Source of the DNA: Eledone cirrhosa
Taxonomy: Eukaryota
Assembly: GCA_964016885.1 (NCBI GenBank)
Contig: OZ024749.1
Coordinates: 53,568,001 to 53,632,000 of the forward strand
Length of the DNA stretch: 64,000 bases
Direction: 5' to 3'
In this document: piece by piece, positions 10,357 to 46,095 of the stretch
How the letters are laid out: the number at the start of each line of letters is the position of its first letter
Numbering within the stretch: position 1 is the stretch's first letter
Translations under genes and position numbers: made by a program
The notes under the pieces: model-generated
Told to the model about the DNA's origin: nothing
Database searches by the model: none
The model's input: the letters and a program-made list of their open reading frames with translations, nothing else

Positions 10357-10953
10357 CATAAAACATGTCTATAGAATCACCAGATAAAATATATATCATT
10401 TCCTCTCCCAATTAGCATAATCAACTATATAAAAAATCGAATAGACCAGGCTATAAGAATAAAGCTTCTATGAGGAAATCTCCAACAAACAACCGAAACT
10501 AGCCCTTCGCTTCGGCGGCTGCGATGGAATATTTATCGAATATTTTGATAGCGTAATCGCCCAGATATACAGTTAATTAAACAGAATTAGGTGTAAAATA
10601 AACTAGGAGAAAAGAGAATACATTTATTTACCTCTACCATGGTTTCGTCCGCATTTTGAGACTTCAGAAACTCGAGCATCGGACTCTTCAGGAGTTTGCT
10701 CTAATCTAGACAATAAATTTTCAAAAGTGATCGCACCAAGAATACATTCAAAAATGACTAAGAATCGTGACGTAGCAGCGGTCAGGTTGGAAGGAGTGTG
10801 GTAGTTGCTTATGGCTGGTGGCTTTTTGCTAGAAAACACAGCACAATACAGCCAAATTTGTATCTCAACCTAATGGGAGATTATATATATATATATGTTG
10901 ATTTAACACTTCACTGCTCACAAGAGTTTTTTAAGCTTCATATCATGTCTCCC

Positions 10954-11024
10954 TATTTTATCTGATGAGAACGCAAATATCATCCCATGATGATATTTGT
11001 TTTTGAAATGCGCATAATAAAATA
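10954..11024 (+). ncRNA. Type-I minimal hammerhead ribozyme (family A, copy 1)
   Basis: TATTTTAT-CTGATGA-stem II (GCAAATATCATC/GATGATATTTGT)-GAAA-TGCGCA-TA-ATAAAATA; palindromic stem III; AUA triplet. Confidence 0.8.
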
Positions 11025-11197
11025 CTTGGAACTCTTTTAACCATCTTTTGATCTTATATTATATATATATATATAAGTAGGAGGTGAGTTTTATTGTACA
11101 ATAAAGCAATGCAGATATCGGATAAGTAGCACTCTACAGTTTGTAGGACTGGAGTATAAATAATATAAGATCAAAAGATGGTTAAAAGAGTTCCATG

Positions 11198-11268
11198 TAT
11201 TTTATTATGCGCATTTCAAAAACAAATATCATCATGAGATGACATTTGCGTTTTCGTCAGATAAAATA
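11198..11268 (-). ncRNA. Type-I minimal hammerhead ribozyme (family A, copy 2)
   Basis: Reverse complement of copy 3; core CTGACGA at 11260-11254. Confidence 0.8.
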
Positions 11269-11359
11269 GGGATACATGATATGATATTTTAAATCAACAT
11301 ATGTTGGTTTAAAACTCCACGATTCACAAGTGTTTTTTAACCTTCATATCATGTATCCC

Positions 11360-11430
11360 TATTTTATCTGACGAAAACGCAAATGTCATCTCATGATGAT
11401 ATTTGTTTTTGAAATGCGCATAATAAAATA
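11360..11430 (+). ncRNA. Type-I minimal hammerhead ribozyme (family A, copy 3)
   Basis: TATTTTAT-CTGACGA-stem II-GAAA(11411)-TGCGCA-TA-ATAAAATA. Confidence 0.8.
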
Positions 11431-11657
11431 CATGGAACTCTTTTAACCATCTTTTGATCTTATATTATATATATATATATATATACACACACATACATAT
11501 TAAATTTAGGTTTAATCGATACATATAAAATATATATCGATTATGCTTCTCAATAAAAAAAGCTCCATCAACATATGGAGAGCACACACACATAATATAT
11601 AATATATAAATGAAATGTGAGCATCCCAATGCAGAAATAACTACATTATAGTTACAA

Positions 11658-38110: not shown

Positions 38111-38288
38111 CATACATATAAATATATACATACATATAAATATATACATACATATAAATATATACATACATATATATATACATATACATATATATATAAT
38201 GGAAAAATTTGAACAGGAACAAAACAGAGAGGCAGTACAACGAATGTTTATTAATTTCACGCTCTGGAGAGTGGGGTGGTGGTGGAGA

Positions 38289-38320
38289 ACGACGTTTCGG
38301 GCATAAGCCCTTCCTCAGGT
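38289..38320 (-). ncRNA. Minimal Penelope-pLTR-type hammerhead motif (family C)
   Basis: Minus strand AC-CTGAGGA-A-GGGC-TTAT-GCCC-GAAA-CG-TC-GT; palindromic ACGT stem III, short stem I. Confidence 0.6.
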
Positions 38321-38567
38321 GAGAAGTGTGTGGGAAGAGAGTTCAAAGGGTGTGTAGGGGAATGGTGGAGAGACATATAGCGAAAGGAAACAGTGCCAAT
38401 GAAATTAAAAATAAAAATAAAAATAAAAATAAAAATAAAGCATGATCAAAATACAAGGAATGAAATAAAATTAAATATAAAAGCATGATCAAAATAAACT
38501 GAAATTAAAAAGGGGTAAAACAGGTGGTGGAAGGGTGTGGGGTGTGTAGGGGTGGTGGCGGGTGGAG

Positions 38568-39313
38568 TGGCTTTCTGAAGAATAGAGGAAAGGTGTTTCC
38601 TCAAAAACCAGTATGACTCTAAAAACCGGTTTGTCTGTGTGTTTACATACAGAATAGCTGGCCACTCACAGTAAAGTGACCAGTGAAAAAACTTGGTACA
38701 TCTACATATGTATACGTGTGTGTATTCATATACATACTAGTATTTCAGTATACATATATGGATGTACATCTTTAACTTAATTGTTTAAGCGTCAGTCATA
38801 CAAAAGTGAGTTACAAACGAAACGAAATTTAATTTCGTTTCGTTATTTGTTTTTATCGTCTCCGTTGAACCGGTACTTACTCACACTCTATGCAAATTAG
38901 TCTGCCCACTACTAATTTTCATAGAAAAAGCATACAACGATATGTGCTTTTACGATTCTCTAGAAAGGCCGGAAGATAGGTAAATATTGCTGATGAGTTG
39001 TAACAACAACGAAACTAGTTCAATATTCCTTGTCTGGCTTTCTGGAGAATAGAGGAAAGGTGTTTCCTCAAAAACCAGTATGACTCTAAAAACCGGTTTG
39101 TCTGTGTGTTTACATACAGAATAGCTGGCCACTCACAGTAGAGTGACCAGTGAAAAAACTTGGTACATCTACATATGTATACGTGTGTGTATTCATATAC
39201 ATACTAGTATTTCAGTATACATATATGGATGTACATCTTTAACTTAATTGTTTAAGCGTCAGTCATACAAAAGTGAGTTACAAACGAAACGAAATTTAAT
39301 TTCGTTTCGTTAT
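38568..39313 (+). mobile_element. Partial tandem (about 1.6 x 467 bp) non-coding retrozyme-like element
   Basis: 38568-38846 is repeated at 39035-39313 (offset 467); the spacer holds a hammerhead; ends in (TA)n. Confidence 0.8.
38983..39027 (+). ncRNA. Type-I minimal hammerhead ribozyme (family D)
   Basis: AATATTG-CTGATGA-GTTG-TAACAA-CAAC-GAAA-CTAG-TT-CAATATT; 7-bp stem I, 4-bp stem II, palindromic stem III, GUU triplet. Confidence 0.82.
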
Positions 39314-39358
39314 TATATATATATACATATATATATATATATTTATATATATATATAC

Positions 39359-39393
<35 letters not shown>

Positions 39394-39460
39394 CATATAT
39401 ATACATATATATATACATATATATATACATATATATACATATATATATACATATATATAC

Positions 39461-39505
<45 letters not shown>

Positions 39506-39590
39506 TATATACATATATATACATATATATATACATATATATATATACATATATATACATATATATACATATATATATACATATATATAC

Positions 39591-39623
<33 letters not shown>

Positions 39624-39648
39624 CATATATATACATATATATATATAT

Positions 39649-41323
39649 AACTACAGGAGAAGTACCTAGCTAAAGGTAAACCCCTCTACTTAGCTTTTGT
39701 CGACTTGGAGAAAGCCTTCGACAGAGTCCCCCGCTCCATTATCTGGTGGGCTCTTAGAAAACTAGGCGTTGACGAATGGCTTGTGAGGGCTATACAAGCC
39801 ATGTATAAAGAAACAGTCAGCAAGGTTAGAATTAACAACGAATATAGTGAAGAGTTTAGCGTAAAAGTTGGCGTCCATCAGGGCTCTGTTCTCAGCCCAC
39901 TACTATTTATTATTGCCCTTCAGGCTATAACAGAGGAGTTCAAGACAGGCTGCCCATGGGAACTCCTATACGCAGACGACCTGACACTCATAGCGGAATC
40001 AATGGCCGAGCTAGAGAAGAAATTCCAAACATGGAAGCACGGCCTAGAGTCAAAAGGACTTAAAATTAACCTGGCTAAGACCAAAGTACTAGTTTGTAGG
40101 AAAGAAAACAAGGCGGCGGTCCCTTCTGGGAAATGGTCGTGCTCGGTGTGTAGGAAAGGCGTAGGTAGAAACTCCATTTTATGTCCTAAATGCAAAGTAT
40201 GGGTGCATAAAAGATGTAGTGGGATCACAGGTAAGCTAACTAAGAACATAGATTTTACATGTGGCCGGTGCTCTGGTGCAATAAGTAGCAGCAAGTGCCC
40301 ACAAACTACTAGCTCTTTCAATTGCGCAGAGGGTTCTATAGAAATAGTGGACAGCTTCCGTTACCTGGGCGATAAAATCAGCAGTGGGGGAGGGTGCTCT
40401 GAAAGTACTGTAGCTAGAGTCAGAACTGGTTGGAAAAAGTTCAGAGAGCTTATACCACTATTAGCTGCTAAAGGGTTCTCACTAAAAATGAAAGGCAGGT
40501 TGTACGATGCCTGCATACGAACAGCAATGCTGCATGGCAGTGAGACCTGGACATTGTGTGCAGAGGATATACGCAGACTAGAGAGGAACGAAGCTTGCAT
40601 GCTCCGCTGGATGTGTAACAGTAATATACGTGAACGGCAAAGCATAAACGAACTAAGGAAAAAATTAGAGATAAGAGGGATCAGATGTTGTTTACTCGAG
40701 AGAAGGCTACGTTGGTATGGACACGTGATGCGCATGAAAGTCGATAGCTGTATAACAAAGTGCAGGGCAATAAAGATAGACGGTAGTCACGGAATAGGCA
40801 GACCTAGAAAAACCTGGGACGAGCTGATAAACTCCGACCTCACACACTTACACCTCTCCAAGACAATGTCACTGGACCGAGACCTTTGGCGGTACTCAGT
40901 AACAGAGAAGACCCGCCTTACCTAAATATATAGTAAAACCTACTCCAGCCAGTAGGCATCTCTAACAAAATACACCCCGTCCCACCACCCCCGCCCCCAC
41001 CCCATCCACACCACCCCGTTCTATGTAAAGTTATGTTGGTGCCGCGCCATCGAGGCCGAAACAAATGAGATCGTGTAGGTGTCACGACAAAAAAACACAC
41101 AGTCAACGCTGTAATGTGGCCGTGTAGGCAACACGGTAAAAACCTCCCAGACCCACACTGTAAATGTGGTTGGTGTTAGGAAGGGCATCCAACTGTAGAA
41201 AACCTGCCAGACAGTCCTATGCGAGCAAGACAATCACTCTTGCCTCAAGTGGGACTACCCCCGTCCAAACCCATGCAAGCGTGGAACACGGACGTTAAAC
41301 GTTGATGATGATGATGATGATGA
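39649..41323 (+). mobile_element. 5'-truncated young RTE-type LINE (open RT/PHD ORF, 3' UTR, (GAT)n tail)
   Basis: ORF 39705-40925: DLEKAFDRV, GVHQGSVLSP, LLYADDL, PHD-like finger, thumb; tail ggacgttaaacgttgatgatg. Confidence 0.95.
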
Positions 41324-44432: not shown

Positions 44433-44948
44433 CATATATATATATACATATATATATATACATATATATATACATATATACATATACATATATACATATA
44501 CATATATACATATATATATATACATATACATATATACATATATATATATACATATACATATATACATATATATATACATATACATATATACATATATATA
44601 TACATATATATATACATATATATACATATACATATATATATACATATATATATACATATATATATATACATATATATATACATATATATATACATACAAT
44701 ATATAGTAAGAAACACAGTAAACCATGTGTCCAAAATTACAAGGGTTGAAAAACCACATATGCTTGAAATATTTAACCAAGAAACAGACAGAATGACGAA
44801 ATGAAAATAAAAATATATTATCAAATAATACAAACCGCCTCAATAACCATTATATCTCTCGGACCACGTTTGGCTGGCGAAGCACGAGGTGATGAATTCA
44901 TCTTTCTGTGTGAACGTTGGCATATAGTGTTTGTGGCATTTAATCGCA

Positions 44949-45030
44949 ATCTCTCGCTGATGAAGCCCAGGATTATCTGTTACAAACACACTCAGGGCGA
45001 AACAGATTAGGGATAATCTGTCCGAGAGAT
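44949..45030 (+). ncRNA. Canonical type-I hammerhead ribozyme (family E, copy 1)
   Basis: ATCTCTCG-CTGATGA-A-GCCC...GGGC-GAAA-CAGATTA-GGGA-TAATCTG-TC^-CGAGAGAT; 8-bp stem I, 7-bp stem III, GUC triplet, predicted cut after 45022. Confidence 0.92.
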
Positions 45031-45417
45031 ATAATGGTTATTGAGGCGGTTTGTATTATTTGATAATATATTTTTATTTTCATTTCGTCATTCTGTCTGT
45101 TTCTTGGTTAAATATTTCAAGCATATGTGGTTTTTCAACCCTTGTAATTTTGGACACACGGTTTACTGTGTTTCTTACTATATATTGTTAATCGGCTCAG
45201 TATTTATTTGTACTTTATACTTAGAGCTTAATGGTTACAGGGTTCTAATTCATATATATATTTCGGCTCTCTTACAGGATGAGCTATTAAGTTGTGCGTG
45301 TTTGACTGTTATTTCTGTTCAACACGCGCTTACCACGTTTGGCTGGCGAAGCACGAGGTGATGAATTCATCTTTCTGTGTGAACGTTGGCATATAGTGTT
45401 TGTGGCATTTAATCGCA

Positions 45418-45499
45418 ATCTCTCGCTGATGAAGCCCAGGATTATCTGTTACAAACACACTCAGGGCGAAACAGATTAGGGATAATCTGTCCGAGAGAT
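45418..45499 (+). ncRNA. Canonical type-I hammerhead ribozyme (family E, copy 2)
   Basis: Identical to copy 1; predicted cut after 45491. Confidence 0.92.
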
Positions 45500-46095
45500 A
45501 TAATGGTTATTGAGGCGGTTTGTATTATTTGATAATATATTTTTATTTTCATTTCGTCATTCTGTCTGTTTCTTGGTTAAATATTTCAAGCATATGTGGT
45601 TTTTCAACCCTTGTAATTTTGGACACACGGTTTACTGTGTTTCTTACTATATATTGTTAATCGGCTCAGTATTTATTTGTACTTTATACTTAGAGCTTAA
45701 TGGTTACAGGGTTCTAATTCATATATATATATACATATATATATACATATATATATACATATATATATACATATATATATATATACATATATATATATAC
45801 ATATATATACATATATATACATATATATACATATATATATATACATATATATACATATATATATACATATATATATACATATATATATACATATATACAT
45901 ATATATATACATATATACATACATATATATATACATATATATATACATATATACATACATATATATATACATATATATATACATACATATATACATACAT
46001 ATATACATACATATATATATACATATATATATACATATATACATACATATATATATACATATATATATACATATATATATACGTATATATATACA

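What the first reader, a model, noticed from the sequence alone, without database searches (positions are those of the whole stretch)
38568..39313. Second, unrelated 467-bp partial-tandem unit with a minimal dimer-type hammerhead
Seen: 279 bp repeated at offset 467, with a clean hammerhead at 38983-39027 (palindromic AACTAGTT across stem III). The first repeat starts about 14 nt downstream of the position equivalent to the cut site, and the array ends in (TA)n straight after a strong palindrome (ACGAAACGAAATT-T-AATTTCGTTTCGT). A second hairpin GAGGAAA-GGTG-TTTCCTC is also present. Inference: same replication logic and almost the same unit size as the 469-bp element despite no visible similarity, which hints at a size constraint.
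Basis: partly seen in the sequence, partly recalled or inferred. Interest (0 to 1): 0.75.

Follow-up and report, generated by a model that had tools for sequence, protein, structure and literature searches.

The report
Retrozyme carrying Penelope twin-priming footprints
This is one truncated copy of a very abundant, non-coding, ribozyme-bearing repeat whose insertions almost always have two opposite arms, each ending at a different one of two fixed sites, the same footprint as protein-coding Penelope-type jumping genes in this genome, so it is likely copied by their enzyme from a likely circular RNA.

Summary
In detail: a 467-bp unit repeated over 280 bp (2 mismatches), one type I hammerhead, both hairpins. 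It is a 1.6-unit copy of a non-LTR retrozyme family with about 8,300 hammerhead copies in a 3-Gb animal genome. 5' breakpoints are unrelated to the cut site (98.2% of 7,258 post-cut copies keep the upstream bases), and a homologous family has 431-433-bp units, so no tight size limit is shown. What is real: 3' ends sit at two fixed internal sites about 70 nt apart, in (TA)n. Of 57 classifiable head-to-head pairs, 56 use one site each. Both arms carry the same sequence variant and are not fold-back copies. The unrelated 469-bp family (9 of 9) and an intact Hydra-type Penelope-like element (9 of 9) obey the same rule. This points to mobilisation by a Penelope-like enzyme priming twice on an uncut template, a circle more likely than a linear multimer. 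Cleavage, expression and the partner enzyme are untested. The scan held no look-alike sequence; it noted a similar ribozyme-less element in another genome.

The parts
38568..39314 (+). 1.6 tandem units of the 467-bp retrozyme (monomer positions 15-467, then 1-294, counted from the cut site); one arm only, no inverted partner arm
38983..39027 (+). Type I hammerhead; core 38990-38996 and 39011-39014; 2-bp stem III; predicted cut after 39020 (GUU)
   Evidence: near-invariant in 350 units with a compensatory stem II change
39249..39254 (+). Short (S) family end site, monomer 229-234 (also 38782-38787 in the first unit); inferred priming site
   Evidence: 43 of 102 3' ends; 26 of 59
38853..38856 (+). 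Long (L) family end site, monomer 300-303, as present in the first unit; the window's own arm stops at 294; inferred priming site
   Evidence: 54 of 102 3' ends; 26 of 59
39283..39311 (+). 13-bp hairpin inside the ~70-nt tail between S and L (also 38816-38844); region almost unchanged between subfamilies that are 88.7% identical overall
39052..39069 (+). GAGGAAA hairpin (also 38585-38602), two pairs with compensatory change
39315..39649 (.). (TA)n-like tract, the insertion target
   Evidence: 88 of 102 family 3' ends are followed by such sequence
38199..38570 (-). Neighbour, not part of the unit: 3' end of an unrelated Neptune-like Penelope family, with its own hammerhead-like motif near 38287-38323, joined head-to-head through 3 nt of microhomology (38568-38570)
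   Evidence: junction unique in the genome

Best explanation
The region is a one-armed, one-ribozyme copy of an abundant non-coding hammerhead repeat (a non-LTR retrozyme) that is likely pasted into (TA)n by the reverse transcriptase-endonuclease of a Penelope-like element. Shown: family size, no coding capacity, conserved RNA fold on the + strand, two fixed 3' end sites about 70 nt apart, one of each per inverted insertion, random 5' junctions, seamless read-through of the cut site, one sequence variant in both arms. Inferred: arrays are transcribed; neighbouring hammerheads pair through the 6-bp palindromic stem III and cut out monomers, which a host ligase would close into circles; a dimeric Penelope-like protein would cut both strands of (TA)n and start cDNA at site S from one broken end and at site L from the other; both copies run round the template for 0.1 to about 30 units and are joined head-to-head, mostly through short microhomology. 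The window copy has probably lost its second arm and, with one hammerhead, could not release a monomer in cis.
For: Copies: 5,197 exact 31-nt cores and 3,239 with a GUC/GUA triplet (overlap about 4 in 100 listed). Ends: 97 of 102 and 52 of 59 3' ends at S or L; pairs 37 S+L, 1 L+L, 0 S+S, 4 with an odd end (p 1.4e-10) and 19 S+L, 0, 0, 7 odd. Same rule in the 469 family (9 of 9 head-to-head pairs in 21 loci) and in an autonomous element with intact 821-codon frames, 9 of 9 pairs with both ends visible in 20 loci, tail about 90 nt; its protein has the DKT, RW and CxCX5C marks of the Hydra clade, which inserts in (TA)n (PMC8557442 passages). Two internal start sites, extension of both strands and a predicted dimer are reported for a Penelope-like protein in vitro (PMC11167929). 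One variant per insertion: 0.32% within arms, 0.22% between arms, 2.7% between loci (453 units, 60 loci); 0.76/0.92/5.9% in a second set. Not fold-back: in 8 of 54 pairs neither arm fits inside the other, 10 expected if independent, 0 under fold-back. Uncut template: 98.2% read-through. Junctions: 37 of 60 overlap, 9 blunt, 14 with inserted bases. RNA fold: 99.4% of cells paired, 6 pairs with two-sided change against 2.3 in shuffles, 0 of 500. L075: 19 of 19 covering units in both arms share three private A-to-G changes.
Against: No cleavage, expression or circle data. The cut triplet is GUU in 346 of 350 units of this subfamily, a weaker triplet by my recall, and 8 of 9 frog retrozyme dimers did not cleave in vitro (bioRxiv 10.64898/2026.07.22.740005). 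Some arrays are mosaics of shared variants (L035 alternates at first; L089 has a variant in 6 units of one arm and none of the other; L055, L057), which a single monomer circle does not explain without later conversion. In vitro, uncleaved RNA was the main substrate and ribozyme mutants inserted normally (PMC11167929). The partner family is not identified: similarity to the Hydra-type element across S-L was reached by 24 of 2,000 shuffles in one of 12 comparisons, and other parts of that element scored higher. 'Same variant' is not 'same molecule'. Related sequences can beat the covariation shuffles without structure (tool caveat). Loci are about 90 of an estimated 2,500; 32 were chosen as best matches and the rest come from the first 71 Mb of one contig.
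Confidence: 0.7

Rival explanations
1. Same enzyme and same two start sites, but the template is an uncleaved linear multimer read from a uniform source array; the hammerhead matters little for insertion.
For: Read-through of the cut site fits equally; mosaic arrays; uncleaved RNA is the main in vitro substrate in PMC11167929; GUU triplet.
Against: Arms of 20-30 units, some with all units identical and carrying private changes in both arms (L075, L050), need a one-unit bottleneck followed by multi-unit copying; the ribozyme core is nearly invariant with compensation.
Confidence: 0.22
2. The unit is the terminal repeat of an autonomous Penelope-like element not yet found, and arrays grew by DNA-level tandem amplification after insertion.
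For: Frog retrozymes resemble terminal repeats of such elements; 30 of 83 fetched regions hold some Penelope-like coding fragment.
Against: No such fragment lay upstream in sense next to an arm: the nearest were 477 bp or more away, except one that follows a cut-off arm; no tblastn hit in the monomer; both arms are often multi-unit and end exactly at S and L.
Confidence: 0.06
3. One reading: insertion ends are set by ribozyme cleavage and the unit length is constrained near 468 bp.
For: Window copy starts 14 nt after the cut; subfamily units are 463-481 bp and 469 bp; the unrelated family is 469 bp here.
Against: Uniform 5' ends; at most 1.8% of copies could start at the cut; homologous family of 431-433 bp.
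Confidence: 0.02

Closest known systems
Metazoan non-LTR retrozymes (Cervera and de la Pena 2020, PMC7229834, passages read; Li, Clavereau and Pollet 2026, bioRxiv 10.64898/2026.07.22.740005, parts 1-3 of 5 read, supplements closed)
   Same: Non-coding, low-GC tandem units each with a type I hammerhead, thousands of copies, highly self-paired, co-occurring with Penelope-like elements; short stem III as in amphibian dimer-acting forms.
   Different: Unit slightly above the 150-450 bp of the first paper (inside the 51-972 bp of the second). Dispersed inverted two-arm insertions with two fixed ends are not described in the text I saw ('inverted' has 0 hits in PMC7229834); those papers argue Penelope dependence from co-occurrence and terminal-repeat similarity.
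Endonuclease-bearing Penelope-like elements, especially the Hydra clade (PMC8557442, PMC3846280 passages; PMC11167929 parts 1-2 of 4 and passages)
   Same: Partial tandems, inverted 5' copy, a tail on one end only, (TA)n targets, two internal start sites downstream of a hammerhead.
   Different: No protein coded; tail about 70 nt rather than 30-40; start sites 230 and 303 nt past the cut; both arms often many units long. The one-site-per-end rule and the independence of the arms are counted here; I did not find such counts in the searches.
Minimal hammerheads of Penelope terminal repeats (PMC4209133, passages)
   Same: Palindromic stem III region, proposed to act as dimers.
   Different: This motif keeps a 2-bp helix III with a 2-nt loop and a 7-bp helix I, which that paper calls canonical.
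L1 twin priming (recalled, not read)
   Same: Head-to-head inversion made by priming from both target ends.
   Different: Both start sites are fixed and internal, and one arm's 5' end is unrelated to the other arm's start.

Membership tests
Metazoan non-LTR retrozyme | Type I hammerhead in each unit | tested here: met
Metazoan non-LTR retrozyme | Tandem units of a few hundred bp, GC under 45% | tested here: met
   467 bp, GC 35%; arrays to about 30 units
Metazoan non-LTR retrozyme | No protein coding | tested here: met
   longest ATG frame 29-30 aa on either strand; no tblastn hit with three Penelope-like proteins
Metazoan non-LTR retrozyme | Two consecutive hammerhead units (the 'active' criterion of Li et al.) | tested here: met
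   met by the family; not met by the window copy, which has one
Metazoan non-LTR retrozyme | Highly self-paired RNA | tested here: met
   z -7.7; 142 pairs, 99.4% kept in 29 variants
Metazoan non-LTR retrozyme | Self-cleavage | not testable with these tools
   bench assay needed
Metazoan non-LTR retrozyme | Expression as linear and circular RNA | not testable with these tools
   no suitable RNA data reachable; see Tried and rejected
Metazoan non-LTR retrozyme | No LTR, primer-binding site or polypurine tract | not tested
   no LTR layout seen; PBS and PPT not searched
Autonomous Penelope-like element | Frame coding reverse transcriptase plus GIY-YIG endonuclease | tested here: not met
Autonomous Penelope-like element | Tail: two 3' end sites, present on one end only | tested here: met
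   about 70 nt, longer than the 30-40 published
Autonomous Penelope-like element | Inverted 5'-truncated copy next to the direct copy | tested here: met
   42 of 60 loci have both arms with readable 3' ends; several others keep a short inverted stub; absent in the window copy
Autonomous Penelope-like element | Target-site duplication | tested here: inconclusive
   cannot be read inside (TA)n
Minimal hammerhead (PMC4209133) | No helix III or loop 3 | tested here: not met
   2-bp helix III and 2-nt loop, invariant in 29 variants

The most novel reading that the evidence does not exclude
One circular 467-nt RNA is copied at once by both halves of a Penelope-type dimer, one from each of two fixed sites, rolling up to 30 times and writing the same molecule, with its A-to-I edits, into both arms. 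The one-site-per-end rule would then be the general cause of the tail and the inverted copy of Penelope-like elements.
Probability: 0.35. Interest if true: 0.8.

Novelty: new member of a known kind. Interest (0 to 1): 0.58.

Why it matters
How Penelope-like elements make their inverted copy and one-sided tail is still open, and that they move animal retrozymes has been argued mainly from co-occurrence. Here thousands of young insertions give direct counts: one S end and one L end per insertion, arms made independently from one variant, and no stop at the ribozyme cut. The genome also holds many intact frames of a Hydra-type element with the same footprint, so a short defined RNA, a candidate enzyme and a simple (TA)n target are at hand for a test. 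The window copy itself is an ordinary truncated member.

Tried and rejected
RNA evidence: no RNA holder listed; six runs of unknown kind under four organism labels hold the unit, and contigs bridge the 467 junction in all four laid, which shows presence only; one search listed no variants and was uninformative. Chimera idea: the left neighbour is a different Penelope family joined by 3-nt microhomology; the junction is unique, that family showed no inverted arm in 20 loci, and about five other one-armed loci also have unrelated 5' flanks, so I take it as a deletion or chance join, not proof of partnership. Partner by sequence: not significant. A-to-I editing: among 40 private alleles fixed in a locus, A>G 15 against T>C 4 (p 0.011), but p 0.61 once structure-neutral sites are allowed for, and no clear neighbour preference; only the clusters in L075 (3 of 3) and L184 (5 of 5) remain as a lead. 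Position-25 G/A hot spot (95 A of 359 units) was not listed at 5% or more in short-read contigs and may be an assembly error. Fold-back origin of the second arm rejected. Pfam did not name the Hydra-type protein and the PDB search gave nothing; its clade rests on motifs. The first degenerate pattern had one N too many and found one locus. Literature searches for cephalopod or octopus retrozymes found no description (PMC6962438 passages only count hammerheads). Rows dropped before counts: L091 and L092 (overlap L075), L180 (duplicate of L179), one low-complexity row in L034, one 48-nt internal repeat in L038; L089 and L090 merged; arms cut by the edge of a fetched stretch not counted at that end.

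Full report
Observation. The repeat, the hammerhead and both hairpins are there. 38568-38847 recurs 467 bp later with 2 mismatches in 280 nt. The ribozyme has a 7-bp stem I, a 5-bp stem II and a 2-bp stem III around a 2-nt loop, with the predicted cut after 39020. Rfam places it in the hammerhead clan below the curated score. The folding model does not allow the 2-nt loop in a monomer, while a rough dimer fold is favourable at -15.2 kcal/mol. This fits the dimer idea of PMC4209133 (passages) but does not show cleavage. Positions below count from the cut (1 = window 39021).

Family. The genome (3.0 Gb; probably an octopus, my inference, no call) holds 5,197 exact copies of the 31-nt core and 3,239 with a GUC/GUA triplet, the latter mostly a subfamily 88.7% identical. 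I examined 60 loci of the first kind (32 best matches, 27 in position order, and the window) and 31 from the second search. Arrays reach about 30 units. The unit has 35% GC and no frame over 30 codons. It folds far better than shuffles. In 29 variants 99.4% of cells in 142 pairs stay paired, and 6 pairs show two-sided changes, including hammerhead stem II (also 46 of 350 units). Many one-sided changes give G-U pairs, which marks the + strand as the RNA.

Ends. 3' ends fall at two sites: S (229-234) and L (300-303). Of 102 ends, 43 are S, 54 L and 5 other, and 88 run into TA-like sequence; in the second set 26 S, 26 L, 7 other. Most insertions are two arms joined head-to-head. Pairs were 37 S+L, 1 L+L, 0 S+S and 4 with an odd end, and 19 S+L with 7 odd. 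The S-L region is almost unchanged between subfamilies. 5' ends are uniform round the unit (Rayleigh p 0.17 and 0.16). Because loci were found through the ribozyme, I checked genome-wide: 7,125 of 7,258 copies of the first 22 nt after the cut keep the 7 nt before it. So cleaved ends are rarely if ever where copying stops, and the 14-nt offset in the window is chance.

The same footprint elsewhere. The 469-bp family has ends near 163-168 and 239, with 9 of 9 head-to-head pairs S+L in 21 loci (my reading of the table), and no sequence similarity to the 467 unit. An autonomous element with many 821-codon frames ends about 43-54 or 135-138 nt after its own hammerhead, again one of each in 9 of 9 pairs where both ends were visible among 20 loci. 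Its protein has the DKT, RW and CxCX5C motifs given for the (TA)n-targeting Hydra clade. PMC11167929 (parts 1-2 of 4) shows that a Penelope-like protein starts at two internal sites that bound the tail, extends both strands and is predicted to be a dimer. PMC8557442 notes the tail is often on one end only. The 467 family carries this signature without coding anything, which is direct anatomical support for the partnership proposed in PMC7229834 (passages) and in bioRxiv 10.64898/2026.07.22.740005 (parts 1-3 of 5; supplements closed, and they may list related families).

How the arms are made. Units differ by 0.32% within an arm, 0.22% between arms and 2.7% between loci; in 32 of 41 pairs the partner arm is closer than 95% of other arms. 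PMC3846280 (passages) proposed self-priming for such inversions. Here 8 of 54 pairs have neither arm inside the other, close to the 10 expected for independent arms and not the 0 of fold-back; neither S nor L arms are longer. Junctions mostly overlap by a few bases. I infer two priming events, one per broken end, on one template variant. Whether it is one molecule is not shown.

Circle or multimer. For a circle: long arrays of identical units with private changes in both arms (L075, 19 covering units) and a conserved ribozyme. Against: mosaic arrays, the GUU triplet, in vitro use of uncleaved RNA and no RNA data. I put the circle at about three to one.

The window copy. It runs from 15 to 294, has one hammerhead and no inverted arm. 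Its left flank is the 3' end of an unrelated Neptune-like family on the minus strand (clade from motifs, partly recalled), joined by 3 nt of microhomology; the junction is unique. Loss of the second arm is the simplest reading.

Size. Two families near 468 bp are not enough. A homologous third family has 431-433-bp units, spacings in the 469 family run from about 457 to 487, and published units span 51-972 bp.

Verdict. A new member of a known kind, with unusually clear evidence on mechanism. It works like a Penelope-like insertion but is not a member of that coding family. Untested: cleavage, expression, circularity, the partner enzyme and editing. Interest 0.58.

Noticed in passing
window 10900-11470: Two small insertions of the terminal repeat of the Hydra-type Penelope-like family, hammerheads at 10962 (+), 11260 (-), 11368 (+); the 11076-11468 pair shows the long end on one arm and the short end on the other.
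   Followed up: partly
window 38199-38570 (-): 3' end of a Neptune-like Penelope family with a long C-rich 3' region and a hammerhead-like motif whose core reads CUGAGGA; 1,010 candidates in the genome; no inverted arms seen in 20 loci.
   Followed up: partly
window 44696-45720: The 469-bp family: long-stem-III hammerhead, 245 exact 30-nt hits, same two-site inverted anatomy.
   Followed up: yes
L127:1-900, L117:100-1200, L209:150-760, L104:1000-1450: A third, distant relative (about 67-77% over parts) with 431-433-bp units, a GUA-triplet hammerhead and the same two end types.
   Followed up: partly
window 38578 and 39045 (monomer 25): G/A mixture within 24 arrays; the site faces a C in a long helix; not seen at 5% in short-read contigs, so editing, damage or assembly error remain open.
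   Followed up: partly
L075 (monomer 337-342) and L184 (315-433): Clusters of private A-to-G changes shared by all covering units, resembling RNA editing fixed by retrotransposition; overall excess not significant after allowing for structure.
   Followed up: partly
L173:3520-4013: A 40-bp cut-off arm runs directly into a diverged Penelope-like reverse transcriptase fragment (29% identity to the Neptune-like protein).
   Followed up: no
window 39650-40000: Reverse transcriptase fragment of a non-LTR element right of the TA tract, resembling frames seen in L063 (RTE-like by recall).
   Followed up: no
L241:2444-5183: Four alternating arms, with a tail-to-tail join centred on the 13-bp hairpin (ends at 285-287).
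   Followed up: no
runs X1, X3, X5, X6: The unit with its tandem junction occurs under four organism labels; one carries the GUC triplet and the compensatory stem II pair.
   Followed up: no
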